NCBI GenBank assembly: GCA_028289425.1
Contig: JANQPL010000014.1
Span: forward strand, 122,170-186,169
Source: Alphaproteobacteria bacterium
Lineage (GTDB): Bacteria; Pseudomonadota; Alphaproteobacteria; JANQMY01
Direction: 5' to 3'
Length of the DNA: 64,000 nt
Shown here: piece after piece, positions 34,539 to 52,078 of the stretch
Layout of the letters: each line of letters opens with the position of its first letter
How positions within the stretch are numbered: the first letter of the stretch is position 1
The notes under the pieces: model-generated
What the model saw: only the letters and a program-made list of their open reading frames with translations
The model's database searches: none
What the model was told of the DNA's origin: nothing
Program-made: the position numbers and the translations under genes

Positions 34539-35030
34539 ATGGCGAACATGAGAAATGTGACCATCAGAGCCGCAACGCTCGACGACAAAGACGCATCGTT
34601 GCGGCTCTACGAGCAAATAGATGAGCTGCACCGTCAAGCGCGGCCGGATATCTTTCGCGTCCCCGATGGCGCACGGCGGTCAGAGACATTCCTCAAAAAG
34701 CGCATTGAGAATGACGGGTGTGCCATGTATGTGGCGCAGGCCGGGGAGACGGTCGTCGGACTTGCAACCATTATTCTGAGGCGTACACGGGAAGATTCCA
34801 TCCTGCGGAAGCAGTACTATGCGGAGGTCGACGAGATTGTCGTCGATACCGCTCACCAGCAGCGCGGCACGGGAACGCTTCTGCTGGAGGCGTGTTTGGA
34901 CTGGGCGCGCCGGCAGCCGGATGTGACCGCCGTGACGCTCGGTGTTCACGAATTTAACGCAAACGCCCGGCGGTTCTATGAGAGCAAAGGCTTCAAAACC
35001 TTCTACCGGCAGATGGAGATTGAGCTTTAG
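34539..35030 (+). CDS. GNAT family N-acetyltransferase.
   Basis: Acetyl-CoA-binding motif QQRGTGTLLLEA. 163 aa. Confidence 0.75.
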   Translation: MANMRNVTIRAATLDDKDASLRLYEQIDELHRQARPDIFRVPDGARRSETFLKKRIENDGCAMYVAQAGETVVGLATIILRRTREDSILRKQYYAEVDEIVVDTAHQQRGTGTLLLEACLDWARRQPDVTAVTLGVHEFNANARRFYESKGFKTFYRQMEIEL

Positions 35031-35085
35031 GGCTCAATTTTCGATACGAAATGGAAGGCGTTAGACACATCTTTGTCTTATCGAG

Positions 35086-35574
35086 TTAGCGCCTTCTCTT
35101 TCGCTTCTTACGGTCAGCCTTGTCTTTTTCAACGGGATAAACTTGATGCTCTGGGTCCCACCACAACAATCTTAAGATGTTTTCATGCTGCGGCCACCAA
35201 AACGCCCAAGCGCGATTTTTGCCAGTAAGTCGCAGTGAAATCAGCTCATCGAATTGGTCCATGCCCAATTTCTGCAACCTAACTTGAGCACTGCTATGTA
35301 GTTTATTGACCCCAATTCTGTGAGATCCTCCAGATTTTATTTGATCCCAGTTCTTACCTTCAAATTCGCGGAGCTTGTTGATTACTTCTAAGGCCTTGCC
35401 ACTCTCGGCAAGTTGGGACCAGCCAAAAGGACCTTCGCTGTCAGTGTTTTCAAACTTCCAGGCGAGCATCATATCGCTTTTTTTAGACGGAGCAGCGACT
35501 TTTGGGAGGCTCTTTGTATCGCGAATCCTAAATTCCGATTTTGGCCGGCGGGCTTTCCCCTTGCTTCTTTTCAC
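35086..35574 (-). CDS. Putative toxin partner of the Panacea antitoxin; 162 aa with K/R-rich termini and no recognisable domain.
   Basis: Its GTG start overlaps the antitoxin TAG stop by 1 nt (TAGTG on the minus strand). Both the N- and C-termini are basic. It lies in a low-GC islet. In-frame ATG codons also occur at 35472 and 35469. Confidence 0.5.
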   Translation of the reverse strand: MKRSKGKARRPKSEFRIRDTKSLPKVAAPSKKSDMMLAWKFENTDSEGPFGWSQLAESGKALEVINKLREFEGKNWDQIKSGGSHRIGVNKLHSSAQVRLQKLGMDQFDELISLRLTGKNRAWAFWWPQHENILRLLWWDPEHQVYPVEKDKADRKKRKRRR

Positions 35575-36005
35575 TAGAGCAAGCCGCTATAGTACTCGGC
35601 CATTGCGGAGTGAGAAATTTCTCTGTTTGAACGCGCGTCTTCCGGCAAACCCTCTCGCGCTTCCTTCCAGGGCCGTTCTCGATGAGTTAGCGCACTGAGC
35701 TGCGCTGCGCTCTTCTTCCCGTAGTATTCTACAACGACCTCAATCGTCTCTTTTTCTTCGTCTGATAGGTTACGAATGTCCCCGCTTGGAGGAGTGGAGA
35801 TATTGAACCGCCCTTTGTGCCAATCATATAGCTCGCGTACAACCGGCCCATTCGCCCACGCAAGAACCCTCTCTTTGAAAATCGGTTTCTCATCCCAAAC
35901 CAAAGACCAGGCTTGTGAGTAGTAGACGAGCTTTTGAAGCTTCATTGCACTCATCTTGCCGTGAAGCTTCACGATGTATCGAGCTACATCGAATACGTTG
36001 GACAT
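35574..36005 (-). CDS. Panacea-domain (DUF4065) SocA-like antitoxin.
   Basis: The N-terminal pattern MSNVFDVARYIVKLHG..MSAMKLQKLVYYSQAWSLVW...AWANGPVV matches the DUF4065 / SocA consensus. The start is set at the ATG at 36005. The ORF track begins at 36047. Confidence 0.75.
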   Translation of the reverse strand: MSNVFDVARYIVKLHGKMSAMKLQKLVYYSQAWSLVWDEKPIFKERVLAWANGPVVRELYDWHKGRFNISTPPSGDIRNLSDEEKETIEVVVEYYGKKSAAQLSALTHRERPWKEAREGLPEDARSNREISHSAMAEYYSGLL

Positions 36006-36056: not shown

Positions 36057-36276
36057 TAGGTTGCATATTCGTGAGTCTAAACAATAAGTTACTTACAAAG
36101 CCTCACCAACGAAACCGTGTTATTTCAATCTTGGAAAACACAAAGATCGCGACTTCGGCAAGCCATAGAGTTAGCTGGTAGCAGAGATACCTATTCGTGT
36201 ATAATTCTTAATCCGAGGGGAGGCCCCGGTACGCATGAGAGATTCCGATGGCCTCGACAGATTTCCGCCCACTCAT

Positions 36277-41631: not shown

Positions 41632-42353
41632 ACCGATTCCTTTCTTGCGAGGTATACGGTTTGAGTGAACGGTCTGTTGTCTTGAAGCGGATTTGTGAAA
41701 GTGACGGGTTCCGCGCGCGCCCAGCCGAAGACGGCCGCCAATCGGTCCGTAAAGTCATTGTCAGGCGGCACGTTCGACCACAACCCCATGACGCCCTTGG
41801 GATGGAGATGCGCTGCAAGGCCCGCCATTCCGTACTCGGAGTAAAACCCGTCACTGCGTTCATCGAGCAGCATATCCGGCGCATGATCAATGTCGATCAG
41901 GATAGCGTGAAACAAGCGACCCGGCACGCTAGCATCGAAACCGTCGGCAGAAGCGGCAAGGGCGAAGAAATCGCCCTGCACGATCCGGCACCGGCCATCA
42001 TCTTTCAACGGCGGCGCAAGCGGCACCAATCCTTGGTCATGCCAATCGATCACCGCCTCCAGGTATTCAATAACCAACAGCGACCCAACCGAATCGTTTC
42101 GCAGCACCTCCTGAGCGGTGTAACCAAGCCCCAATCCGCCGACCACCACGTCCAACCCGTTGCCATCCGCTTCCGCCAACCCAAGTCGGGCAAGCGCAAT
42201 TTCCGACTCTGTGAATAGGCTGGACATAAGATGTTCATCGCCGAGCATGATCTCAAACACATCCGTGTCCAGCGACAAGACACGGCGCCGTCGCAGGCTG
42301 ATCGGCCCGATAGGGGTCGGCCGGTAGTCGAGTTCTTCGAAAAGGTTGCTCAT
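41628..42353 (-). CDS. Spermidine-synthase-like (PABS fold) methyltransferase-fold protein.
   Basis: Gly-rich VVGGLGLGYTAQE motif. 241 aa. Its stop overlaps the aminoacylase start by 4 bp. Confidence 0.45.
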   Translation of the reverse strand: MSNLFEELDYRPTPIGPISLRRRRVLSLDTDVFEIMLGDEHLMSSLFTESEIALARLGLAEADGNGLDVVVGGLGLGYTAQEVLRNDSVGSLLVIEYLEAVIDWHDQGLVPLAPPLKDDGRCRIVQGDFFALAASADGFDASVPGRLFHAILIDIDHAPDMLLDERSDGFYSEYGMAGLAAHLHPKGVMGLWSNVPPDNDFTDRLAAVFGWARAEPVTFTNPLQDNRPFTQTVYLARKESV

Positions 42354-42377
42354 GGCGCTTCCCCCTTGCCGCAGCCG

Positions 42378-42923
42378 CTAAGGCACCAAATCGCAGCGGC
42401 CGGAGGCCAACGCAGAAACCACCTTGGCCAGAGATTGGGCGAGTGCATCGCCATCCGTCGAAATCCGGTGATCGGTGTAGTCATTCGACTCGGTGAAGGC
42501 TTTGTGCATATGCCGAACGCCTTCTATGGGAAACTTATCAGCATCCGGACGTTCCGATGCCCGTTTGACAGTCTCGCCAAGACTCGCATGAAGAATCACG
42601 TAGCGACAGGGAACCGTCCCCGACAGAGATTCCAAAAATGTCTTTGCGAACCACGGACCAATGACCCCGTCGACGATGGCGGTGTAGCCCCCGATGGCAA
42701 ACCCCTCGGCAGCCATCGCCGCGGCGCGAATTACTGTTTCGTTTTGGTGGTGACTTTCGGGACGTGTCGGGTCAACATAATGGCAGATGGACGCATGAAA
42801 GGAATCCACGTCAAGCAGCACACCGTGGGAGTCTTCCTCCGCCAAGCGGCGTGCAATCGCCGTCTTTCCGGTGCCAGGGCACCCGGTGACAACGTCAATT
42901 CTTCCCTTTTTCAGTGTGCTCAT
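42378..42923 (-). CDS. P-loop NTPase / small-molecule kinase-like protein.
   Basis: Walker A motif GCPGTGKTAIA. 181 aa. Confidence 0.5.
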   Translation of the reverse strand: MSTLKKGRIDVVTGCPGTGKTAIARRLAEEDSHGVLLDVDSFHASICHYVDPTRPESHHQNETVIRAAAMAAEGFAIGGYTAIVDGVIGPWFAKTFLESLSGTVPCRYVILHASLGETVKRASERPDADKFPIEGVRHMHKAFTESNDYTDHRISTDGDALAQSLAKVVSALASGRCDLVP

Positions 42924-42941
42924 CGGCTGAGCTTAGAGCGG

Positions 42942-44945
42942 TTAGGCCTCCGCCCGCAAATCGAGCCAGCCAATCTCCTGTTCAGTCAAGGGAACGGTCA
43001 AAGCCTCAAAAGACGATTTGGTCTCAGCGATGGTGCGCGGACCGATCAGCGCAAACGGTTCGAAGGGCTGGGCCAACACGTAAGCCAACGCAATATGAAC
43101 GGGTGCGACGCCTTTTTGTCCCGCCAACTCATAGCACCGCTTGCGGCGTTCAAAATTTGCGTCCGAATACCAGGCATTGACCAATTCCATGTCGTCCTTC
43201 TTGTCGGGGCCGGCACGATCAGTAAAAAATCCGCGCGCTTGGGACGACCAGCACATCAGCGCAATTTCATTTTTGGTCAACCAATCGCGATAGGCGTCTT
43301 CCGATGCCGCGATGCATCCCGGCCAGACAGGATTTTCCATGCGGGCCAGACTGAAATTGTTGGAAACGGCTTCAAATCCCAACAACCCCTTCGAGTCGGC
43401 ATAGGCGTTTGCCTCGTCGATACGCTCTGCCGTCCAATTGGATCCGCCATAGGCCTTGATGCGCCCCGCGGCCACGTGCTCATTGATCGCATCGACGAAT
43501 TCGCCCACCGGTACATCCAGATTGTCCCGATGAAGGAAGTAGACGTCCACATAATCCGTTTGCAGACGGTCGAGCGACTCAATAAGTTCAGGTGTAACGG
43601 TTTGCGGAAAGCAATTGGGGCTGTGCGCGCCCTTCCCAATCACCACCAACTCATCCCGAATACCTCGATTGGTCATCCACTGACCCAAAAGCTTCTCCAT
43701 AATGCCCTCGCCGTAGAGGTGGGCCGTGTCGAAGCAGTTGCCGCCGCGCTCAACGAAATCGTCAAACATGACGGCCGCATGGGGCATGGTCACTTGATTG
43801 TCGCAGCCCATCACCAGGCGAGAGATTTGCTTGTTCACCTTGCCGAAACTGCGATATGGCATCGGATCGACCGGTACCACCTTCAACGGGCCGCCATGGA
43901 CCGTACGGGTAACCGCTTTGGGGCGCTCTGCATCATAGGTCAGTCGAATCTGGCTGCGCCAAGCATCCAGCGTGGCCATATTGCCCAGCGTGTCGTTCCA
44001 GGACATTTCGTCCGTCTGCTGCCTGCCCGAAGCGATTGCATCGGCGATAACCTCCGCTTCAACAGCGTAAATGTTTCGCGTCTCATCGACCTTCATGCTT
44101 TCCGGTTTTTTGCCGTGGTGCGTCAACACCACCTCACCGAATGTCTTGCCATGCTGGGCCGGATGCCACGGCGCCGGCAGATGCAATTGTCCCTTATCGC
44201 CAAACACCGTGACCGTATTGTCGAGCCAAACCGACACGGCAGTAGAGACCTGGGCGACGATGCCGTTTTCAAACTGCATCGTGGCCGCCGTCCACTGGTC
44301 GACACCGGTTTCACCCAACTCGCCGACCGCTTTGACCCGAACGGGATCGAGGAACGGAACGCCTTGAACCGCGCCCGCTACAAGGCGGCTCATGGAAACG
44401 GGATAGCACCCCACATCCAATATACCTCCGCCCCCGAGCGCATTGCTGAAGAGCCGGCTGTTGGCATCGAAAGGCGCCTCAAATCCGAAACTTGCTCGGA
44501 TCATCCGCACGTCGCCGATAGCCCCGTCGCGAATCAAGTCAATCGCCTTTTTGGTTTGCGGATGGCAGCGATACATAAACGCTTCCATAGCGAAGACGCC
44601 GTTTTCCTCTGCCGCGTTGAAGATCGCCATGGCTTCCGCGTGGTTCATGCCGATGGGTTTTTCGCACAGCACGTGTTTGCCTGCGCGGGCGGTCTTGATG
44701 GCCCATTCCGCATGGCCGGGATGAGGGTTGGCGATGTAGACAGCTTCGACCGCCGGGTCGTTCAAAAGCGACTCGTACGAGCCGTGCGGCGTTGTGCCGT
44801 CGCCGTGGGCGGCGAATTTATCGGCACTTTCCTGCGAACGGCTGCCGACGGCCGCCAGCGTGCCCTTGTCGGTCGTCTGCAGCGCTTTTGCAAACTGCTT
44901 TGCAATGCTGCCGGTTCCCAAAATACCCCACTTGATGCTTCCCAC
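42942..44945 (-). CDS. Fusion protein: N-terminal Gfo/Idh/MocA oxidoreductase and C-terminal aldo/keto reductase.
   Basis: N-terminus KWGILGTGSIAKQFA...VYIANPHPGHAEW...CEKP is Gfo/Idh/MocA-like. The C-terminal half has an AKR-like TIM barrel (GCDNQV...FDTAHLYGEG). 667 aa in a single ORF. Confidence 0.7.
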   Translation of the reverse strand: MGSIKWGILGTGSIAKQFAKALQTTDKGTLAAVGSRSQESADKFAAHGDGTTPHGSYESLLNDPAVEAVYIANPHPGHAEWAIKTARAGKHVLCEKPIGMNHAEAMAIFNAAEENGVFAMEAFMYRCHPQTKKAIDLIRDGAIGDVRMIRASFGFEAPFDANSRLFSNALGGGGILDVGCYPVSMSRLVAGAVQGVPFLDPVRVKAVGELGETGVDQWTAATMQFENGIVAQVSTAVSVWLDNTVTVFGDKGQLHLPAPWHPAQHGKTFGEVVLTHHGKKPESMKVDETRNIYAVEAEVIADAIASGRQQTDEMSWNDTLGNMATLDAWRSQIRLTYDAERPKAVTRTVHGGPLKVVPVDPMPYRSFGKVNKQISRLVMGCDNQVTMPHAAVMFDDFVERGGNCFDTAHLYGEGIMEKLLGQWMTNRGIRDELVVIGKGAHSPNCFPQTVTPELIESLDRLQTDYVDVYFLHRDNLDVPVGEFVDAINEHVAAGRIKAYGGSNWTAERIDEANAYADSKGLLGFEAVSNNFSLARMENPVWPGCIAASEDAYRDWLTKNEIALMCWSSQARGFFTDRAGPDKKDDMELVNAWYSDANFERRKRCYELAGQKGVAPVHIALAYVLAQPFEPFALIGPRTIAETKSSFEALTVPLTEQEIGWLDLRAEA

Positions 44946-45065
44946 TTGTTCGCCTTTCTCAATGCCGCCAAACCCGCATGGTTAAGCGGATCTTTACGTA
45001 AACCCTCTTTAGTAGCTTGTCACCAAAACACAACGCCAAAAGTAAGGACCGAAGGGGTTTTTCTT

Positions 45066-46106
45066 ATGTCTCAGTTGCAGGGGTTTTTGTGGTCCATGGG
45101 GCGATGCGCCACCAAGGCGGTGGCGGACACGATCAGCGCACACACACCCGCCCATGCCACGAGCTGGGTCGACACCACTCAGATGATGAAAAGCCCGGCC
45201 TATTACATCAAGCACGCGCCGGTACCATTGGTGATGACACTGCACCATCCGCAGTATTGCGATACCTTCGGCAAGCTTACCCAGCAGTTCGCCGATGCTC
45301 CGGTGGTGCACACGGTGCGCGATCCGATTTCGAACCTCAAGAGTTTCGCGAAAACATTCCTGACATCCTTCGTCGCCCGGCGCGTTGATGAAGCGGGTCA
45401 ACTTTCGGCCCAGGGCAAGTCGGTAGCCGACGCCATCAACCCGGCGGCACTTGAAGAATGGTTGCTGCCGACGGCAGATCTTTGGCGCCAATACAATGCT
45501 TACAAGAATTCGCCTCACTTGATTGTCGATTTTGCGGATTTGGGCGAAGACCACTTCGTTGGGACCATGGAAGAGATCATCGGATTTCTGGGTCTGACAA
45601 TTGAAACCCCTATCACGTGGACCACGGAAGCCAACACGGAATGCGACCGCTTCTTCGTAGGCTATCAGCGCAGCTTCACCCTCATGGACAAGAAACTCGA
45701 TCTGCAGTTCAGCCGCTGGCCGAACCATTGGGGCGAGTTTGGAATGACCACATTGGGGGAATTGAGGTCGGAGGCCCTGCGTGAGGTGTGCGGCGATGAT
45801 CCCATCTACATTCACATTGCCAGCGACCAGCTTTGCACATTCGGCCGGCTGGATTACGAGTGCGCGACATTCGCGGCCTATATGGCCGAGGATGCAGTGC
45901 GCGAGGCCATCGCCCATCAGGTCGCAACCGACTACGCCAATACCGCCGAAATTGTCGCCAAGGACCTTACCGGGCTTCAGAGCCGATTGATCGCAAAATT
46001 CGAGAAAACGAGCCGCAATGGCGTGAAACGTTTCCTCAAACTCAAGCCAGAGCTTGAAGCGCGTTGGGCAGGCTGGCAAGAGCTGATGGAACGGAAAGCG
46101 GCGTAA
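45066..46106 (+). CDS. Hypothetical protein; weak sulfotransferase-like features.
   Basis: 346 aa. An RDP-containing segment (VVHTVRDPISNLKS) resembles the 3'-phosphate-binding motif of PAPS sulfotransferases. An APS kinase gene lies 4 kb away. It is the only real part of a 1291-aa ORF in the track. Confidence 0.35.
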   Translation: MSQLQGFLWSMGRCATKAVADTISAHTPAHATSWVDTTQMMKSPAYYIKHAPVPLVMTLHHPQYCDTFGKLTQQFADAPVVHTVRDPISNLKSFAKTFLTSFVARRVDEAGQLSAQGKSVADAINPAALEEWLLPTADLWRQYNAYKNSPHLIVDFADLGEDHFVGTMEEIIGFLGLTIETPITWTTEANTECDRFFVGYQRSFTLMDKKLDLQFSRWPNHWGEFGMTTLGELRSEALREVCGDDPIYIHIASDQLCTFGRLDYECATFAAYMAEDAVREAIAHQVATDYANTAEIVAKDLTGLQSRLIAKFEKTSRNGVKRFLKLKPELEARWAGWQELMERKAA

Positions 46107-46734
46107 AGAGCGCGCGCATCATGTCTATGTCTTGCTCGCGGAAGGGGGCAAGACGTTCCGGATGCCACATAATTCCGCGGATCGGATAGCCCTCGACTGT
46201 AATTGCCTTGACGATGCCATCCGATGATCGTCCGTCTACAGATATTCTATCATTCGAGTCCGCGGTCCCGAAATTGTGGTAACTGTTGACGGCAATCGCC
46301 TTGCCGCAAAAATCGACCGTTTGTTTTTTCTGAACATGTCCATCGACGTGCTTAAGCGGAACACCGAAATGGTGTTGAATGATTTGCATGCCTCGGCATA
46401 CGCCTAAGAGCGGCACATGATGTTGGATCGCATGCTCCAACAAGTTGGTTTCAACGGCATCGCGTTCTGGTGCGTCGCCACCGTATGCCACAAGATCATT
46501 GCCGCCCGTGAGTAAGATGCCCGTTGGTTTCAAGTTGCGTATGAACACGTCGACCAGTTGAGGATTGTTCGGCATGGCAATGCCCACATATCCCGCCTGA
46601 GACAAAAACGCTGCCCATTGCTGGTCCAGCGCATCGCGGCGCTCGCCGGTCTTCATATCCGTTACAACGCGTTGGGTAATTAGTACGATTGGCGCCCTGG
46701 TCACGCAATCACATCCACTTTGCGATTGGCGCAA
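46042..46734 (-). CDS. Class I glutamine amidotransferase-like, gamma-glutamyl-GABA hydrolase (PuuD) family.
   Basis: GATase1 nucleophile motif GVCRGMQ and the HH pair. The start is uncertain. Confidence 0.65.
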   Translation of the reverse strand: MRQSQSGCDCVTRAPIVLITQRVVTDMKTGERRDALDQQWAAFLSQAGYVGIAMPNNPQLVDVFIRNLKPTGILLTGGNDLVAYGGDAPERDAVETNLLEHAIQHHVPLLGVCRGMQIIQHHFGVPLKHVDGHVQKKQTVDFCGKAIAVNSYHNFGTADSNDRISVDGRSSDGIVKAITVEGYPIRGIMWHPERLAPFREQDIDMMRALFTPLSVPSALASLPNALQALA

Positions 46735-49085
46735 TCAATGCGCAGCGTCTTAGCGCCCGACCATCTTTCGAAGTTGCTCTCGCCGGCGCCGATCACCGCC
46801 GGAATTTGAAGCTCGCCCGCGCGAATTGCCATGTGAGAATTCACACCGCCATAGGCCGTGATCAGCCCGCCGATCTTGTGGGAAAACAACCAATCAAAAC
46901 CGGGATCCGCATTGGGCAGCATGACAATCGCCCCGTCCAATCCGGCAAAATTGTCCGGCGCGACGGTATTTGCTTGGATCGACCGTTGGGTGATGAAGTT
47001 CGGCTCATCCGCCCCCATTTCCATCTGCCAAACATCGTCGGCACCAGTGATCAGACTTGGCAAGATCAATGCCTTGGTTTTTTCATATTGCGCGCGGCCT
47101 GATTCAATGGCGCGTCCCAACACATCTTTCGGATCATTGACGGTGCCATAAAGCTCATGCACGGCCTGGATGTTGGCAAACGCCAAATCCTCACGCGTAA
47201 ATCCGTGGCGCGCCCCGACCTCGGCAAAAATCTCCATCGCGTCCGATAGATTGCGCGTGAAATGAAACTTCGCCTTTTCGCGGCCTTCAATGCCGGCTTT
47301 CAGGAAATTGAATAATCCAACCACATTGTGGCTGAGATTATGCTCTTTCAGCAAAGCACTGATCTCATTCATCTGTTGAAGCGTCAGCGCAAAGGCCGGA
47401 TGAGAAGCCCTGGCGCCATCTGCCTGTTCGTCCCACCTAAAGTAAGTGTCGGGTGCTGCGTCGTAGCGTGGCGAACAAATGTCGTATGTGCCCGGACGAA
47501 GGTGGCCATATCGATGGAGAAAAGCGCTTTTGGTGAGATTTTGGAAATCCGCAGCGATTTCTCCACTCACTGTCGTAAGGCTGCTCAAGAAGGCTTGGTA
47601 GTCTTCCTCACTCAATGCCCCCGCCGTGACCAAGGATCTAAGCAACTGCATGGCAATAAAGCCGGCGCGGGCAAGCCCCGCAAACGGCAAGGTGCCGTAC
47701 CGCTTGCAATCTTCCAGCAGCCAATAGACCTGGGAGATGGCGTCGTCCTGCTTGGCGCAAATTGTTTCATAACGCCGTTGCAACGTCTCGATCTTGGCAA
47801 GGTCCTTTCGCCACAATCCATCGTCGGCGATGATCCGATTGGTGAGGTGCCTCAGGCTTTCTTCGAGAACCAGACGATCGTTTTCGGAAAATCCGTACGC
47901 TGTTAATTCGCGTAGTCGTTCCGGCAGGTCGAGCGTGTAGCAGGAAAACAGGATCTCGAACTCAACCTTGTCATGAAGCGATGGCCGCTCACAGAGCGCA
48001 TCGATGTAGTAATTGGCCAAACGCTCGGCGAGGTCATCCGGCACGTCATTGGGAATGAAAGAATTGAAACTTACCCGAACGTCAATGAACGGCATGCCGT
48101 AGAAGTCGCACAGAAGCGGAAAGCTGCGCAGGTTCCGATACCCGTAATTGTGCCGCTGATAGGCCCAGATCGAATCCGTCACCAATTCCCGATAGAGCGA
48201 TAAAGCGAGAGGTTTCGGCCGCAATCCAATGATTTCCGCCGGGTTCCAATCGGGCATGACACCGAAGACTGTGCGCCGACCAAAAAGGTAAGGATGCGGT
48301 TTTGCGCGTTCCGCTACGCGACGCGCTACAGCACCAAGCATTATGTTGTGCTGCTGAATATCGACACCGCGCGCGCCGTTCTCGACCAGTGGACGTGCCT
48401 GCAACAAAAACAATGCGCCCTTCCGATCGATGGCAAACTCTATATCCAACCGGTCGTTGCCGGTCAGCCGTTCCACTTCCTTAAGGAGCGCCGCCACCTT
48501 TTCGCCAATCGGATCGTCGACCTGCTCGGCCGAGCGGCTGATGATCAGTGTGCGATGATCGTTCGACGTACCGGAGGTAATGAACTCGGTATCGCCTTCC
48601 TCGCTGAAATTCAGAACTATGTATGGCGCGCCCGTGTTCGGATCGTAGGAAAACGCAACCCCGCTTGCCACCACGTCGCGCAGCATTGGTTGGATGAGAA
48701 CCTGGTGATCGGTGTGATCATCGCCATACGATGCGTATACCTGCTCGACGGCAAGCTCAAGCGCCCGTGGGCCCTCCACATTGAGCACACTTAGATATTC
48801 ACCTGCGTGTGATGCGTCTGCGCCGTCTTCCCCGAGGGCGCTGCTGCGCACAATCATTGGGGCTGCCGCCCATTCATTCCTGAAAATGCGGTTCACCATC
48901 TGGCGCCGGTTGTCGCGCCAGGCGCCGAGCGTCACGACTTCAGCCGGCAGAATCGTCGCGGAACGGATCTGCGCCGAAAGCCCGTGCAGTGTGTCGGCTT
49001 TACTTCCAAAGCGAAAAGCCTCGGGGCGCTGTCGTTCAAGGTCGAGCGCGTACCGATTCGAAGCCGACGACATTGCATTTTTCAT
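46701..49085 (-). CDS. PEP-utilising enzyme with rifampin-phosphotransferase-like architecture: N-terminal PPDK_N ATP-grasp domain, a central domain, and a C-terminal His swivel domain, with no PEP/pyruvate TIM barrel.
   Basis: N-terminal PEP-synthase ATP-grasp signature (FGSKADTL...SSALGEDG). C-terminal mobile-domain catalytic His in GGVNSHMAIRAGELQIPAV. 794 aa. Confidence 0.7.
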   Translation of the reverse strand: MKNAMSSASNRYALDLERQRPEAFRFGSKADTLHGLSAQIRSATILPAEVVTLGAWRDNRRQMVNRIFRNEWAAAPMIVRSSALGEDGADASHAGEYLSVLNVEGPRALELAVEQVYASYGDDHTDHQVLIQPMLRDVVASGVAFSYDPNTGAPYIVLNFSEEGDTEFITSGTSNDHRTLIISRSAEQVDDPIGEKVAALLKEVERLTGNDRLDIEFAIDRKGALFLLQARPLVENGARGVDIQQHNIMLGAVARRVAERAKPHPYLFGRRTVFGVMPDWNPAEIIGLRPKPLALSLYRELVTDSIWAYQRHNYGYRNLRSFPLLCDFYGMPFIDVRVSFNSFIPNDVPDDLAERLANYYIDALCERPSLHDKVEFEILFSCYTLDLPERLRELTAYGFSENDRLVLEESLRHLTNRIIADDGLWRKDLAKIETLQRRYETICAKQDDAISQVYWLLEDCKRYGTLPFAGLARAGFIAMQLLRSLVTAGALSEEDYQAFLSSLTTVSGEIAADFQNLTKSAFLHRYGHLRPGTYDICSPRYDAAPDTYFRWDEQADGARASHPAFALTLQQMNEISALLKEHNLSHNVVGLFNFLKAGIEGREKAKFHFTRNLSDAMEIFAEVGARHGFTREDLAFANIQAVHELYGTVNDPKDVLGRAIESGRAQYEKTKALILPSLITGADDVWQMEMGADEPNFITQRSIQANTVAPDNFAGLDGAIVMLPNADPGFDWLFSHKIGGLITAYGGVNSHMAIRAGELQIPAVIGAGESNFERWSGAKTLRIDCANRKVDVIA

Positions 49086-49098
49086 TGTCGTAAAGCCG

Positions 49099-49854
49099 TC
49101 ACGCGGCGCGTTTTGCCGCCCAAACGCGGGTTGTATAAGGCACCTGTATGCTCGGAGCTTTCAATGCCCGCAGTTGGTTTTCGATTTTGTCAATGATGGC
49201 GCCAAAGCCATCGCCTGCCTGCCGATGCAGCGTTGCATGCGAACGCCACGCTTCCACAACATCGTCGACCTGCTGCTCGTGCAAGATCGTGCCTTCGATC
49301 TTCTCTACGGGGCCGAACAAACCACTCTTGTTGATTTCGTCAGTCTGGTCTTCACGACGCGTGCCGTATCCATATTCGGGGATTGCATCAGAAATGATGC
49401 CTTCGATTTCCGCCTGGATCGGATCGGAAAGATCCCGATGGTTCCACATGGCCGCAAACCAACCACCTGGCTTTAGAATGCGGGCCGTTTCCGTGAGAGA
49501 TGCTTGACGATCTGTGACGTTAAAGGACGAACCGAAGGTGACAATATCGAACATGCTGTCGTCCTGACCGGTATCTTCCGCCGTGTTTTCGATGTACGCG
49601 ACCACGTTCGGCAACTGCTTTGTCCGCTGTTGGCCCAGCGCTCTCATATTGTCGTTTGGCTCGATAGCCGTCACTTCAAGACCACGGTCAGCCAACATTA
49701 ATGTGAGATGCGCTACGCCCGCGCCGATATCACAAGCACGCGCCCCTTGTTTGGCACCGCACGTGACCAGCAATTCGTCAATCGCGCTGTCAGAGTAATC
49801 TGGGCGCTTCAAATAAGCCTGCGCTAAATCCGAATAATCCCAAGCGGTTTTCAT
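49099..49854 (-). CDS. Class I SAM-dependent methyltransferase.
   Basis: Motif I DIGAGVAHLT. The start is set at the ATG at 49854 (MKTAWDYS). The ORF track begins at 49965. Confidence 0.7.
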   Translation of the reverse strand: MKTAWDYSDLAQAYLKRPDYSDSAIDELLVTCGAKQGARACDIGAGVAHLTLMLADRGLEVTAIEPNDNMRALGQQRTKQLPNVVAYIENTAEDTGQDDSMFDIVTFGSSFNVTDRQASLTETARILKPGGWFAAMWNHRDLSDPIQAEIEGIISDAIPEYGYGTRREDQTDEINKSGLFGPVEKIEGTILHEQQVDDVVEAWRSHATLHRQAGDGFGAIIDKIENQLRALKAPSIQVPYTTRVWAAKRAA

Positions 49855-49980
49855 TGTTAACCCCGTGCTCAAAAAGTTTTGGTAACCAAGAACTAGGCGA
49901 AAGCTCTTGAAAATTCGTTTCGATTTTTCGGGAATTCGGAAAGAAAAAATTAACAAACAGATCATGTTGGTGTACGGATC

Positions 49981-50595
49981 ATGGTTAAACGCGCGTTAAT
50001 AGAACAATTCGCCGATGCAGAGCGGATAAGGGACGACTCCCCTCTTCAGAGGTCGGACCAGGGATGTGTTGTTTGGATTACGGGGCTTTCCGGTGCCGGT
50101 AAATCAACGGTCGGGAACATCTTGAAATCACGGCTATTGGCCAAAGGGCGGCGCACAATATTCCTTGACGGCGATGCGCTTCGGGGCGTCTTCGCCATTG
50201 GTGACCGTTTCGATCCCAATGCGCGGCTTGAACTTGCCCGGAGCTATGGGCGCTTGTGCCAATTACTGGCATCTCAAGGGCATACGGTAATTTGTGCCAC
50301 CATCTCCATGCGCAACGTGGTCTATGACTGGAACCGCAAGAACCTGCCGAATTATGTAGAGGTGTTCTTGGACGTGCCGCTGGAAGTACGCCAGGCCCGT
50401 GATCCGAAAGGATATTACGCGGCGGTCCACAACGGCACACTGAACAATTTCGCGGGTCAAGACCAGCGGGTCGATGTACCGCCGTCACCCGACATTCATA
50501 TCGCACCGGAGTCGGCCGCCACGCCCGAAGAGATCTGCGATCAGATCGAAGCGAAGCTGGATAAAAATTTATCCGTAAAGGGACAAGTCGCCTGA
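49981..50595 (+). CDS. cysC: Adenylyl-sulfate (APS) kinase.
   Basis: P-loop ITGLSGAGKST and LDGDALR motifs. 204 aa. It faces the methyltransferase gene across a divergent AT-rich promoter region. Confidence 0.8.
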   Translation: MVKRALIEQFADAERIRDDSPLQRSDQGCVVWITGLSGAGKSTVGNILKSRLLAKGRRTIFLDGDALRGVFAIGDRFDPNARLELARSYGRLCQLLASQGHTVICATISMRNVVYDWNRKNLPNYVEVFLDVPLEVRQARDPKGYYAAVHNGTLNNFAGQDQRVDVPPSPDIHIAPESAATPEEICDQIEAKLDKNLSVKGQVA

Positions 50596-51321
50596 GGCCA
50601 CGCGCCGTTCGTAGTAGGCGAGATCTTCTTCGTTATCGCACTCGCCCCAGCTTCCCTGGACGGGCGACGTCCCGATTTTCACGCCTTCCATAATCAGCCG
50701 CTGCAGAAGGCTCGTCATGTCAAGTTTGTCCCGCACGGCACCGATCAAAGGTTCAATCACGCTTTTGGTTTTCGACCAGCCTTCGGGCGTGAATTTCAAC
50801 AGGCCCATATATTGCCCTTTGATGTCCGCCATCGAATTTGTCTTGCCGCCAATCTCGGTGAGATGACCGTTGTCATCCGTCTGGAATGTTTCTGCATCGC
50901 TCAGTGGATCATCGAATCGGTCTTTCCACAGCGCCGCCCAATGCGGATCGTAGCTGATGGCGATATCGTCCGTACACCGCGATAACCTGATGACCGTCAA
51001 CGGGTCATAGAAGATGTCGCTGTAGCTTACGATGGTCGGTCCCTGCGCTAGCCATTCATCGGCGGCGGACAGGCTTGCCACCATGTTGGTTTCGGACCAA
51101 CGCGGATTGTGGAAACGCGTTTCGCCGAATTCCTCCAGCATATCCGCCTTATAGCCCGTGCACAGCGCAATGTGGCTGACGCCGGCTTCTTCCAGCGATG
51201 CGAGTTGGCGTTCGATCAAAGATCGGCCCGCCAGCTTAATCAGCCCTTTGGGCCGCGCTGCCGTGCTGTTTCCCATGCGGCTGCCACGACCTGCCGCAAG
51301 AATGAGCCCTCTCGCCCCCAT
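50569..51321 (-). CDS. Sugar-phosphate / phospho-base nucleotidyltransferase (LicC / GlmU-N-like).
   Basis: LAAGRGSRMG nucleotide-binding loop. The start is set at the ATG at 51321. The ORF track begins at 51537. Confidence 0.6.
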   Translation of the reverse strand: MGARGLILAAGRGSRMGNSTAARPKGLIKLAGRSLIERQLASLEEAGVSHIALCTGYKADMLEEFGETRFHNPRWSETNMVASLSAADEWLAQGPTIVSYSDIFYDPLTVIRLSRCTDDIAISYDPHWAALWKDRFDDPLSDAETFQTDDNGHLTEIGGKTNSMADIKGQYMGLLKFTPEGWSKTKSVIEPLIGAVRDKLDMTSLLQRLIMEGVKIGTSPVQGSWGECDNEEDLAYYERRVASGDLSLYG

Positions 51322-51481
51322 TTCCCTCAACTCCAGCTGTGAAACCTCGCCAGCAGTATGTGGAAACGAGGGTAAATCGCTGCTTAACCGGGCCAAATAG
51401 TGCAGAAACCCTAACCTATTCGCCCCTCCGCTTGGCTTTCTGCTATAGTTGCCTGCGCTAAAGACCGCCAGGGAGACACAG

Positions 51482-52078
51482 ATGACGTCAGCGACAACGG
51501 ATAAACGGGCAAGTTTCACGGCTATGCAGGACGGCACGCCGGAGGACTACAAGATCATTAGCGAAAGCTCACGACCTTTTAGTCAGGACCTCCCAAATCG
51601 CGTCCTTTCGCATCTTAAGTTGTTGGGCGATGACCACGGTGGCTTCGCAATCGATCGTCTTACCCACTCGCTGCAATCAGCCACGCTTGCGCACCGGGCA
51701 GGAAAAGATGAGGAATATGTGGTCTGCGCATTGCTTCACGACATCGGGGATTCGCTGGCGTGTTATAACCACGCAGAATTGGCGGCCACCATGCTTTATC
51801 CCTTCGTGTCGGAAGCGAACCATTGGATGGTCGAAAAGCACGGCATTTTTCAAGGGTACTATTTCTTCCATCATTTGGGCCTTGATCGGGACATGCGGGA
51901 GGAATATCGCGGGCACCCTCATTTCGAACACTGCGCCCAATTCTGTCACCAATTCGATCAGAACGCCTTCGATCCGGACTACGACACCATGCCGCTCGAG
52001 GCTTTCGAACCGATGGTCCAGCGCGTGATGGCCAAGCCAAAACGCAGTATCTATATGCGGGAAAGCAAAGCGGCATAA
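51482..52078 (+). CDS. HD-domain protein (PhnZ-like HD phosphohydrolase/oxygenase superfamily).
   Basis: H...HD...H...H...D pattern (LAHRAG, LLHDIGD, HWMVEKHG, FHHLGLD). 198 aa. Confidence 0.55.
   Translation: MTSATTDKRASFTAMQDGTPEDYKIISESSRPFSQDLPNRVLSHLKLLGDDHGGFAIDRLTHSLQSATLAHRAGKDEEYVVCALLHDIGDSLACYNHAELAATMLYPFVSEANHWMVEKHGIFQGYYFFHHLGLDRDMREEYRGHPHFEHCAQFCHQFDQNAFDPDYDTMPLEAFEPMVQRVMAKPKRSIYMRESKAA

What the first reader, a model, noticed from the sequence alone, without database searches (positions are those of the whole stretch)
45066..52078. Compact divergently transcribed tailoring-enzyme cluster: RPH-like phosphotransferase, APS kinase, putative sulfotransferase, methyltransferase, GATase, nucleotidyltransferase and HD-domain protein
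Seven genes with small-molecule-modifying functions are packed together. A minus-strand operon encodes a SAM methyltransferase, then a 794-aa PEP-utilising enzyme with rifampin-phosphotransferase architecture, then a PuuD-type glutamine amidotransferase/hydrolase. cysC faces this operon across an AT-rich divergent promoter at 49855..49980. A LicC-like nucleotidyltransferase and a PhnZ-like HD-domain protein form a second divergent pair. A protein with an RDP-type PAPS-binding-like motif is nearby. A standalone APS kinase next to a possible sulfotransferase suggests dedicated PAPS supply for sulfation of a metabolite. That metabolite may also be phosphorylated, methylated, nucleotidylated and gamma-glutamylated. 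No core scaffold-building enzyme is visible in the window, so the substrate is unknown.
Basis: partly seen in the sequence, partly recalled or inferred. Interest (0 to 1): 0.7.

Follow-up and report, generated by a model that had tools for sequence, protein, structure and literature searches.

The report
Portable phosphoramidate-donor cassette with sulfotransferase-like partner
Six of the seven genes are a conserved module that very probably builds an activated phosphoramidate (P-N) group from glutamine, as in the Campylobacter capsule pathway, and not a sulfation or tailoring cluster; its rare sulfotransferase-fold gene is a testable candidate for the enzyme that transfers that group.

Summary
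The functional reading is not.

- **Core cassette.** The PEP-utilising enzyme, C26 amidotransferase, nucleotidyltransferase and "cysC" match the Campylobacter jejuni Cj1418/1417/1416/1415 set. That set makes 3'-phospho-CDP-amidate, the donor for O-methyl phosphoramidate (MeOPN). A Cj1419-position methyltransferase accompanies them.
- **Conservation.** In 80 species genomes from many phyla, 61 keep all five genes within 6 kb.
- **Wider pattern.** Other sulfotransferase-family genes flank the cassette in 28 of the 80 distant loci. CysQ-type bisphosphate nucleotidases lie near it in about 10.
- **Best reading.** The protein transfers phosphoramidate from the PAPS-like CDP donor. This step is inferred, not shown.
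- **HD protein.** It is PhnZ-fold but an incidental neighbour.
- **Context.** The 64-kb window has no glycan or sulfate-assimilation genes, so the acceptor is unknown.

Verdict: a new variant of a known pathway, of moderate interest.

The parts
45066..46106 (+). Sulfotransferase-fold protein (346 aa). Candidate phosphoramidate transferase that would use 3'-phospho-CDP-amidate. Its 3' end overlaps the convergent amidotransferase gene by 65 bp.
46042..46704 (-). Class-I glutamine amidotransferase / peptidase C26 hydrolase (220 aa). Cj1417-type gamma-glutamyl-CDP-amidate hydrolase. Its start overlaps the glutamine-kinase stop by 4 bp.
   Evidence: The best NCBIfam model is NF045546 (E 3e-34, 118.8 bits), which is below the 250-bit cut-off. 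Pfam Peptidase_C26 and GATase. It lies next to the glutamine kinase in 74 of 80 distant loci.
46701..49073 (-). L-glutamine kinase (Cj1418 type): N-terminal PPDK_N ATP-grasp domain plus C-terminal swivelling phospho-His domain (790 aa; 794 aa from the longest ORF, which starts at 49085).
   Evidence: NCBIfam NF004508 965.9 bits, cut-off 501. JGI names relatives of 53-63% identity 'glutamine kinase'. H751 in the motif NSHMAIRA is invariant in 18 sequences. No solved structure of the family exists; the only PDB hit is PEP synthase at E 7e-8.
49099..49854 (-). Class-I SAM methyltransferase (251 aa), in the position Cj1419 occupies next to the glutamine kinase. Presumed O-methylation of the phosphoramidate.
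   Evidence: Pfam Methyltransf_11/25 and Ubie_methyltran. Co-located with the cassette in 68 of 80 distant loci. 65-86% identical in six of the eight ST-linked loci and 32% in L086.
49855..49980 (.). AT-rich 126-bp spacer between the divergent methyltransferase operon and the kinase gene. Presumed promoter region.
   Evidence: GC 0.38 against 0.57 for the window. No sigma-70 consensus hit and no Rfam family.
49981..50595 (+). APS-kinase-family P-loop kinase (204 aa). Cj1415-type cytidine diphosphoramidate 3'-kinase.
   Evidence: NF004041 (PRK05541) 160.1 bits, cut-off 127. TIGR00455 apsK 125.3 bits, below its 138.7 cut-off. Found with the cassette in 74 of 80 loci. Fusions of glutamine kinase with APS_kinase exist: P0039 and P0077. 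The nearest solved structures are true APS kinases at E 1e-28.
50569..51321 (-). MobA/LicC-like nucleotidyltransferase (250 aa). Cj1416-type CTP:phosphoglutamine cytidylyltransferase. Here it is displaced from its usual place downstream of the hydrolase and converges on the kinase gene with a 27-bp overlap.
   Evidence: Pfam NTP_transf_3 62 bits. PDB hits include LicC 1jyk at E 2e-7. It follows the hydrolase in 75 of 80 distant loci and in six ST-linked loci (L082, L084, L085, L086, L093, L094).
51482..52078 (+). HD-domain protein with a PhnZ/TmpB fold (198 aa). Adjacent to the module but judged NOT part of it.
   Evidence: The ten best Foldseek hits are all PhnZ or TmpB, TM 0.58-0.71. TIGR03276 scores 39.2 bits against a 214.6 cut-off. 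The family has at least 8000 members, about 70% identical across Alphaproteobacteria. Homologues stand alone in unrelated contexts. It is absent from all 80 distant loci and from the six ST-linked loci other than the window and its syntenic relative.

Best explanation
Window 45066-51321 is a self-contained six-gene 'phosphoramidation' module. Five of the genes are the counterpart of the Campylobacter jejuni MeOPN donor pathway.

1. The glutamine kinase uses ATP to phosphorylate the amide N of L-glutamine through its swivelling histidine.
2. The nucleotidyltransferase condenses L-glutamine phosphate with CTP to give CDP-L-glutamine.
3. The C26 amidotransferase-type hydrolase releases glutamate and leaves cytidine diphosphoramidate.
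4. The APS-kinase homologue phosphorylates the 3'-OH to give 3'-phospho-CDP-amidate, a structural analogue of PAPS.
5. Inferred: the 346-aa sulfotransferase-fold protein binds this PAPS-like donor through its retained 5'-phosphate loop (R13/T16/K17) and 3'-phosphate motif (R85...S93). With H60 as the likely base, it transfers the phosphoramidate group to a hydroxyl of an acceptor made elsewhere in the genome, releasing cytidine 3',5'-bisphosphate.
6. Inferred: the SAM methyltransferase O-methylates the phosphoramidate to MeOPN, either before or after transfer.

Steps 1-4 rest on homology and conserved gene order with enzymes characterised in C. jejuni. Steps 5-6 and the acceptor are inference. 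The acceptor could be an LPS-core or other glycan hydroxyl, or a small molecule. The HD gene is a bystander.
For: **Family assignment.**
- NF004508 965.9 bits against a 501 cut-off.
- NF045546 is the best hit for the hydrolase.
- NF004041 is above its cut-off while apsK TIGR00455 is below.
- JGI names relatives 'glutamine kinase', and fusions of glutamine kinase with APS_kinase exist.

**Pathway chemistry.** Cj1415-1418 make CDP-phosphoramidate 3'-phosphate from Gln, ATP and CTP (PMC11800397; PMC6429109).

**Conservation of the core.**
- At least 580 matches in species-representative genomes.
- Of 80 loci, 74 have the hydrolase, 75 the nucleotidyltransferase, 74 the kinase and 68 the methyltransferase.
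- 61 have all five genes within 6 kb, and 57 have them on one strand.

**The sulfotransferase-like protein.**
- The family has only about 15 members.
- It lies beside the cassette in 8 of 8 distinct loci whose flanks share nothing else.
- L094 is a co-directional operon: ST, glutamine kinase, hydrolase, nucleotidyltransferase, kinase, methyltransferase.

**Independent echoes in distant loci.**
- Other Sulfotransfer_1/_3 proteins lie within 10 kb of the cassette in 28 of 80 distant loci and on an Azospirillum plasmid.
- hhalign links the window family to one of them at 94% probability.
- A CysQ-like gene lies within 10 kb of the glutamine kinase in about 10 of 80 loci. In L003, L014 and L062 it sits between the hydrolase and the nucleotidyltransferase, and the L003 copy passes TIGR01331. 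This fits a nucleoside 3',5'-bisphosphate by-product.

**Context.** No sulfate-activation genes in 64 kb.
Against: - No activity was measured.
- The hydrolase scores below the NF045546 cut-off (118.8 against 250), and there is no specific model for the cytidylyltransferase.
- No C. jejuni reference sequences could be fetched, so identity to Cj1415-1422 is indirect.
- The genetically defined C. jejuni transferases, Cj1421 and Cj1422, were first annotated as sugar transferases (PMC9561416). I could not test whether they share the sulfotransferase fold.
- The retained PAPS-type motifs would equally fit a true sulfotransferase.
- 52 of the 80 distant cassettes show no sulfotransferase-like gene within 10 kb. 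Sixteen carry an unrelated 312-aa family instead. A Vibrio plasmid has a TagF-like gene. The sulfotransferase fold is therefore not the universal partner.
- No acceptor pathway is visible in the window.
- In C. jejuni, knock-outs of the two methyltransferases gave no visible change in the capsule.
Confidence: 0.6

Rival explanations
1. Split function. The five-gene core makes the phosphoramidate donor. The sulfotransferase-fold protein is a genuine PAPS-dependent sulfotransferase that co-decorates the same acceptor (sulfate plus phosphoramidate). The real phosphoramidate transferase is encoded elsewhere.
For: - Canonical sulfotransferase fold, with the 5'-phosphosulfate-loop and RDP...S motifs retained.
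- Pfam Sulfotransfer_3 is above its cut-off.
- The C. jejuni transferases were annotated as sugar transferases, not sulfotransferases.
- A Vibrio plasmid combines the cassette with cysDN and a TagF-like transferase.
Against: - The family is confined to this cassette: about 15 sequences, 8 of 8 loci adjacent, and once the first gene of the operon.
- The module contains no other candidate transferase, and nothing else recurs in the flanks.
- There is no ATP sulfurylase in the window.
- The only APS-kinase-like gene belongs to the core cassette even in the loci where no sulfotransferase was detected.
Confidence: 0.2
2. This is a tailoring cluster in which a stand-alone APS kinase feeds PAPS to a sulfotransferase. 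An RPH-like phosphotransferase, a methyltransferase, a nucleotidyltransferase and a gamma-glutamyl enzyme each decorate one unknown metabolite. The HD protein is part of the set.
For: The domain-level annotations are correct. The ATP-grasp ... swivel-His domain order resembles RPH. The nearest solved structures of the kinase are APS kinases.
Against: - RPH model: 39.6 bits against a 999 cut-off. PuuD model: 47.5 against 266. apsK is below its cut-off.
- The same four enzymes plus a methyltransferase recur as one cassette across phyla, with the order of Cj1419-1418-1417-1416.
- The known chemistry explains each enzyme as a step on one donor.
- The HD gene is not co-conserved.
Confidence: 0.05
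3. The module's end product is not a decoration on a macromolecule but a free small molecule. The sulfotransferase-fold enzyme would place the phosphoramidate on a diffusible metabolite, or act on the nucleotide itself.
For: - There are no glycan, LPS or capsule genes in the 64-kb window or in the flanks of the 8 ST-linked loci.
- The module is compact, apparently cytosolic and portable.
Against: All natural products of this pathway known so far are glycan-bound: the C. jejuni capsule, and phosphoramide on the Xanthomonas LPS core. Many distant cassettes sit in glycan loci with glycosyltransferases, DegT and epimerases.
Confidence: 0.12

Closest known systems
Campylobacter jejuni MeOPN (O-methyl phosphoramidate) capsule modification genes cj1415-cj1420
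   Same: The enzyme families are the same and the local order is the same: methyltransferase, glutamine kinase, gamma-glutamyl-CDP-amidate hydrolase, cytidylyltransferase, plus an APS-kinase-like 3'-kinase. The predicted product is the same, 3'-phospho-CDP-amidate.
   Different: - The host is not a Campylobacter. The closest named relatives of the neighbouring genes are Alphaproteobacteria.
- The module does not lie in a kps/capsule locus, and no glycan genes occur in 64 kb.
- There is one methyltransferase instead of two.
- The kinase is transcribed divergently, and the cytidylyltransferase is displaced.
- The module carries a sulfotransferase-fold gene in place of (or in addition to) Cj1421/Cj1422-type transferases. 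Those could not be compared here.
PAPS-dependent sulfotransferases (Pfam Sulfotransfer_3; e.g. PDB 3rnl, the NDST sulfotransferase domain 1nst, TPST 5wri/3ap3)
   Same: P-loop-like sulfotransferase fold, a 5'-phosphate-binding loop, and an RDPxxxxxS 3'-phosphate motif with the same 8-residue R-to-S spacing (the spacing comparison is from general knowledge).
   Different: - About 150 extra residues: a beta-sheet insertion at residues 201-252 and a C-terminal helical domain at 262-345.
- Found only next to the phosphoramidate cassette.
- The predicted donor is a cytidine phosphoramidate, not an adenosine phosphosulfate.
APS kinase CysC / PAPS synthesis
   Same: Same fold and P-loop. E about 1e-28 to solved APS kinases.
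   Different: Below the apsK equivalog cut-off. No ATP sulfurylase or PAPS reductase nearby. Co-inherited with the glutamine kinase, and sometimes fused to it.
Rifampin phosphotransferase / PEP synthase / PPDK family
   Same: ATP-grasp N-domain, central substrate domain and C-terminal swivelling His domain.
   Different: Only 35-65 bits to those models, against 966 bits to the glutamine-kinase model. The only PDB hit below E 1e-5 is PEP synthase (2ols); no RPH chain appears.
PhnZ / TmpB HD-domain di-iron oxygenases (for the HD neighbour)
   Same: Whole-length fold match. The ten best Foldseek hits are all PhnZ or TmpB, and the HD motif region matches.
   Different: 22-24% identity. Far below the TIGR03276 cut-off. 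No PhnY-type partner or phosphonate genes nearby. A very large stand-alone family, unrelated to the cassette.

Membership tests
C. jejuni-type phosphoramidate (MeOPN) donor pathway | Cj1418-type L-glutamine kinase (PPDK_N + swivel-His; NCBIfam NF004508) | tested here: met
   965.9 bits against a 501 cut-off. Relatives are named glutamine kinase by JGI. The His in NSHMAIRA is invariant.
C. jejuni-type phosphoramidate (MeOPN) donor pathway | Cj1417-type gamma-glutamyl-CDP-amidate hydrolase (NF045546) | tested here: inconclusive
   It is the best-scoring model (E 3e-34) but reaches 118.8 bits against a 250 cut-off. The gene lies immediately downstream of the glutamine kinase with a 4-bp overlap. 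A homologue is co-located in 74 of 80 loci.
C. jejuni-type phosphoramidate (MeOPN) donor pathway | Cj1416-type CTP:phosphoglutamine cytidylyltransferase | tested here: inconclusive
   Only the generic NTP_transf_3 family matched, and no specific model hit. Co-located in 75 of 80 loci. No reference sequence was available.
C. jejuni-type phosphoramidate (MeOPN) donor pathway | Cj1415-type APS-kinase homologue acting as CDP-amidate 3'-kinase | tested here: met
   NF004041 160.1 bits against 127. apsK TIGR00455 125.3 bits, below 138.7. Co-located in 74 of 80 loci. Fusions with the glutamine kinase exist. Substrate specificity itself is untested.
C. jejuni-type phosphoramidate (MeOPN) donor pathway | Genes clustered and co-inherited as one unit | tested here: met
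   61 of 80 distant loci have all five genes within 6 kb. 8 of 8 close loci have all six.
C. jejuni-type phosphoramidate (MeOPN) donor pathway | Cj1421/Cj1422-type MeOPN transferase present | not testable with these tools
TagF-like proteins occur in 0 of 80 loci.
C. jejuni-type phosphoramidate (MeOPN) donor pathway | Embedded in a capsule or glycan biosynthesis locus | tested here: not met
   No glycosyltransferase, kps or LPS genes in the 64-kb window.
C. jejuni-type phosphoramidate (MeOPN) donor pathway | Formation of 3'-phospho-CDP-amidate / a P-N product | not testable with these tools
   Needs enzymology or 31P NMR.
PAPS-dependent sulfotransferase | Sulfotransferase fold and Pfam family score | tested here: met
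   [not shown]
PAPS-dependent sulfotransferase | 5'-phosphosulfate loop and 3'-phosphate (RDP...S) motifs | tested here: met
   R13/T16/K17 and R85-D86-P87...S93 are conserved in all 17 family members compared.
PAPS-dependent sulfotransferase | A PAPS supply (ATP sulfurylase + APS kinase) in the genomic context | tested here: not met
   No sulfurylase in 64 kb. The only kinase belongs to the phosphoramidate cassette.
PAPS-dependent sulfotransferase | Sulfuryl transfer from PAPS | not testable with these tools
   Needs an assay with PAPS against 3'-phospho-CDP-amidate.
Assimilatory APS kinase CysC | Passes the apsK equivalog model and sits with cys genes | tested here: not met
   TIGR00455 125.3 bits, below 138.7. 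No cysD, cysN or cysH in the window.
Rifampin phosphotransferase (RPH) | NCBIfam NF041857 / NF000283 score | tested here: not met
   39.6 bits against 999, and 19.1 against 1700. No RPH chain among PDB hits.
PuuD gamma-glutamyl-GABA hydrolase | NF008471 score | tested here: not met
   47.5 bits against 266.
PhnZ/TmpB HD oxygenases (HD neighbour) | Fold | tested here: met
   The ten best Foldseek hits are all PhnZ or TmpB, TM 0.58-0.71.
PhnZ/TmpB HD oxygenases (HD neighbour) | Equivalog score and a phosphonate-catabolism partner (PhnY-type dioxygenase) | tested here: not met
   TIGR03276 39.2 bits against 214.6. No such partner in the window or next to homologues.

The most novel reading that the evidence does not exclude
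The sulfotransferase fold has been recruited for a new reaction class: transfer of a phosphoramidate (P-N) group from 3'-phospho-CDP-amidate. The six-gene unit would then be a portable 'phosphoramidation' module that works outside capsule loci, on an acceptor not yet known to carry P-N groups. If so, the cassette, seen in at least 580 species genomes from more than ten phyla, would mark a widespread and essentially unstudied P-N modification in environmental bacteria.
Probability: 0.45. Interest if true: 0.7.

Novelty: new variant of a known kind. Interest (0 to 1): 0.5.

Why it matters
In the literature I could search, biological phosphoramidates are treated as rare. A 2022 review calls the glutamine kinase 'C. 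jejuni-specific' (PMC9561416). Recent Campylobacter papers still name the donor only as the 'likely donor' and assign no function to the two methyltransferases.

This locus shows the same donor pathway in an unrelated environmental bacterium, packaged with a small, apparently soluble sulfotransferase-fold protein. That protein is an obvious and easily testable candidate for the missing transfer step.

Together with the cassette's presence in hundreds of species, and its recurrent pairing with sulfotransferase-family and CysQ-type genes, this gives a concrete handle on how P-N groups are installed and how common they are.

It also corrects an annotation trap. In this context, 'cysC + sulfotransferase' does not mean sulfation.

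Tried and rejected
- **Primary papers.** I tried to read the enzymology papers on Cj1415-1418 (PMC5938747, PMC5938751, PMC5629633, PMC6643276). None is held, so the pathway chemistry is cited from later papers and a review.
- **PDB sequence searches.** There is no solved relative of the ST-like protein by sequence. No Cj14xx structures appeared among the hits for the nucleotidyltransferase, hydrolase, kinase or glutamine kinase.
- **HD as part of the module.** Rejected. It is absent from the 80 distant loci and from six of the eight ST-linked loci. It belongs to a very large stand-alone family.
- **TagF-like transferase as the general partner.** 0 of 80 loci.
- **N-terminal 650 aa of the 846-aa Azospirillum 'adenylyl-sulfate kinase'.** No relation to any of the ST or unknown-family profiles.
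- **The 312-aa family found in 16 loci.** Not related to sulfotransferases by hhalign.
- **Regulatory elements.** Rfam, tRNA and promoter/terminator scans of the cluster found nothing significant.
- **Fold library.** The afdb50 library was unavailable. A fold comparison with Cj1421/Cj1422 was therefore impossible.
- **Literature link.** No paper combines MeOPN or phosphoramidate with the sulfotransferase fold.


Full report
**Observation.** They agree with the gene calls stored for the identical public contig (window coordinate = 59074 minus locus coordinate):

| Gene | Window coordinates | Strand | Length |
|---|---|---|---|
| Sulfotransferase-like (ST) | 45066-46106 | + | 346 aa |
| C26/GATase hydrolase | 46042-46704 | - | 220 aa |
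| PEP-utilising enzyme | 46701-49073 | - | 790 aa |
| Methyltransferase | 49099-49854 | - | 251 aa |
| APS-kinase-family gene | 49981-50595 | + | 204 aa |
| Nucleotidyltransferase | 50569-51321 | - | 250 aa |
| HD protein | 51482-52078 | + | 198 aa |

- Pfam confirms every domain call.
- The hydrolase start overlaps the kinase stop by 4 bp. Two convergent gene pairs overlap, by 65 bp and 27 bp.
- The spacer 49855-49980 has 38% GC. It gave no sigma-70 consensus hit and no Rfam family.
- The 1291-aa ORF at 42231-46106 is an antisense artefact. Only its last 346 codons are the ST gene.

**What the core is.** NCBIfam gives a very different picture from 'RPH + PuuD + CysC'.
- The 794-aa protein scores 965.9 bits on NF004508 (cut-off 501). 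It scores 40-65 bits on the PEP synthase and RPH models.
- The hydrolase's best model is NF045546, gamma-glutamyl-CDP-amidate hydrolase (E 3e-34, but 118.8 bits against a 250 cut-off).
- The kinase passes NF004041/PRK05541 (160 against 127) but fails the apsK equivalog TIGR00455 (125.3 against 138.7).
- JGI labels relatives of 53-63% identity 'glutamine kinase'. Two relatives are fusions of glutamine kinase with APS_kinase.
[quoted passage not shown] Cj1421 and Cj1422 are the genetically defined transferases. Cj1419 and Cj1420 have no assigned function (PMC11800397; PMC6429109; PMC3907429).

**Co-conservation.** A scan of species-representative genomes with a glutamine-kinase profile gave at least 580 confirmed matches. 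I fetched the best 80, with 47-55% identity. They come from Proteobacteria, Acidobacteriota, Planctomycetota, Verrucomicrobiota, Bacteroidota, Bacillota, Cyanobacteria, Gemmatimonadota, Actinomycetota and others.
- tblastn of the window proteins finds the hydrolase in 74 loci, the nucleotidyltransferase in 75, the kinase in 74 and the methyltransferase in 68.
- 61 loci have all five genes within 6 kb, and 57 have them on one strand.
- The typical order is kinase, methyltransferase, glutamine kinase, hydrolase, nucleotidyltransferase. The last four match the order of Cj1419-1418-1417-1416.
- The window's flanking genes, the ST protein and the HD protein are absent from all 80 loci.

**The sulfotransferase-like protein.**
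- It has no PDB relative by sequence and no NCBIfam hit.
- It has only 15 relatives in the 5.8-billion-protein collection. A profile search of 1.84 billion representatives also found 15.
- R13, T16 and K17 (5'-phosphate loop), H60, and R85-D86-P87...S93 (3'-phosphate motif) are conserved across the extended family.
- Every family member on a long enough contig lies next to the cassette. These are the window (L087), L081 (88% identical, an uncalled ORF), L082/L083, L084, L085, L086, L093 and L094.
- The flanks of these 8 distinct loci share nothing beyond the six genes.
- In L094 the six genes form one co-directional operon that begins with the ST gene.

**Independent echoes in the 80 distant loci.**
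- Iterative searches find other sulfotransferase-superfamily ORFs within 10 kb of the glutamine kinase in 28 loci. Pfam confirms sampled cases as Sulfotransfer_3 or Sulfotransfer_1.
- One of these families aligns to the window family at 94% hhalign probability.
- An Azospirillum lipoferum plasmid has the cassette followed by two genes annotated 'sulfotransferase domain-containing'.
- About 10 loci carry an inositol-monophosphatase-family gene within 10 kb of the glutamine kinase. In L003, L014 and L062 it sits between the hydrolase and the nucleotidyltransferase.
- The L003 copy passes the CysQ 3'(2'),5'-bisphosphate nucleotidase equivalog, 233.5 bits against 228.8. A dedicated pNp phosphatase is what a PAPS-like donor that releases cytidine 3',5'-bisphosphate would call for.

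**Mechanism proposed.**
- Shown by homology and synteny: Gln to Gln-phosphate (glutamine kinase), to CDP-Gln (nucleotidyltransferase), to CDP-amidate + Glu (hydrolase), to 3'-phospho-CDP-amidate (kinase).
- Inferred: the ST-fold protein transfers the phosphoramidate to an acceptor hydroxyl and releases pCp. The methyltransferase makes it MeOPN.
- I put about 0.9 on the core assignment and about 0.55 on the transferase role.

**Acceptor.** The 64-kb window encodes acyl-CoA dehydrogenases, a 2-oxoacid dehydrogenase complex, amidases, Rieske oxygenases and a penicillin amidase. It has no glycan, LPS, capsule or sulfate-activation genes. Phosphoramide groups are known on the Xanthomonas campestris LPS core and in Shewanella LPS. 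An LPS-core hydroxyl is therefore a reasonable guess, but a small-molecule acceptor is not excluded.

**HD protein.**
- Its model (pLDDT 85) matches only PhnZ and TmpB among the ten best Foldseek hits. 'PhnZ-like' is therefore right as a fold statement.
- It is far below the PhnZ equivalog cut-off.
- It belongs to a family of at least 8000 sequences, about 70% identical across Alphaproteobacteria.
- Homologues stand alone in unrelated neighbourhoods.
- It accompanies the cassette only in the window and its syntenic close relative L081. I treat it as a bystander.

**Comparison and novelty.** The five-gene core is a new member of the known MeOPN donor pathway. Three things differ from the described system:
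- the host and the non-capsular context;
- the compact, portable six-gene format;
- the tightly linked sulfotransferase-fold protein.

No paper in the searchable library connects phosphoramidate transfer with the sulfotransferase fold. A 2022 review still calls the glutamine kinase C. jejuni-specific. Apart from a Borg preprint, I found no description of the cassette outside Campylobacter. I could not obtain Cj1421/Cj1422 sequences or models, so it remains open whether the known transferases share this fold.

**Verdict.** This is a new variant of a known kind, with interest 0.5.

Noticed in passing
window 42231-46106 (+): A 1291-aa ORF that is mostly an antisense artefact running opposite the real minus-strand genes at 42378-44945. 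Only its last 346 codons (45066-46106) are a gene.
   Followed up: yes
window 42942-44945 (-): A 667-aa fusion of a GFO/IDH/MocA oxidoreductase with an aldo-keto reductase, directly upstream of the ST gene. It is conserved at 80% identity in the syntenic relative L081 but absent from the other ST-linked loci.
   Followed up: partly
window 42378-42923 (-); L081: Indels between the window and its closest relative. The window carries an AAA_33 P-loop kinase gene between the GFO/AKR fusion and the spermidine-synthase-like gene, which L081 lacks. L081 carries an MFS transporter between the HD gene and the acyl-CoA dehydrogenase genes, which the window lacks.
   Followed up: no
L003:12914-13729, L014:12872-13699, L062:12902-13687 and about 7 more loci: A CysQ-type 3'(2'),5'-bisphosphate nucleotidase gene lies near the phosphoramidate cassette. 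In L003, L014 and L062 it sits between the hydrolase and the cytidylyltransferase. Most of these loci have no detectable sulfotransferase gene.
   Followed up: partly
L067:14550-15488 (-) and 15 other loci (mostly Acidobacteriota and related MAGs): A family of about 312 aa with no Pfam or NCBIfam hit recurs just downstream of the cassette. hhalign finds no relation to sulfotransferases. It may be an alternative transferase.
   Followed up: partly
P0039, P0077; L089:11338-14346; L088:8647-11187: Domain fusions around the cassette: glutamine kinase + APS_kinase proteins of 928-962 aa; a 1002-aa Vibrio plasmid glutamine kinase with a roughly 200-aa N-terminal extension; and an 846-aa Azospirillum 'adenylyl-sulfate kinase' whose 650-aa N-terminal part matches nothing tested.
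   Followed up: partly
L089 (Vibrio alfacsensis plasmid pVa1): A more distant cassette (39% identity) sits beside cysD/cysN, a CDP-glycerol glycerophosphotransferase-family gene, glycosyltransferases and an exosortase (XrtA) EPS locus. This is a different partner set from the window.
   Followed up: no
L086:7124-9493: In this metagenomic contig the glutamine-kinase gene is called as three separate ORFs (278, 245 and 245 aa). The cause is either frameshifts (a pseudogene) or assembly errors.
   Followed up: no
window 35001-36000: A local GC dip to 0.48, against about 0.57 for the window. It lies in a stretch with no long ORF, between the genes ending at 35030 and starting at 36248.
   Followed up: no
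window 29128-31218 (+): A 696-aa protein that combines an adenylate/guanylate cyclase domain, a Trans_reg_C DNA-binding domain and TPR repeats.
   Followed up: no
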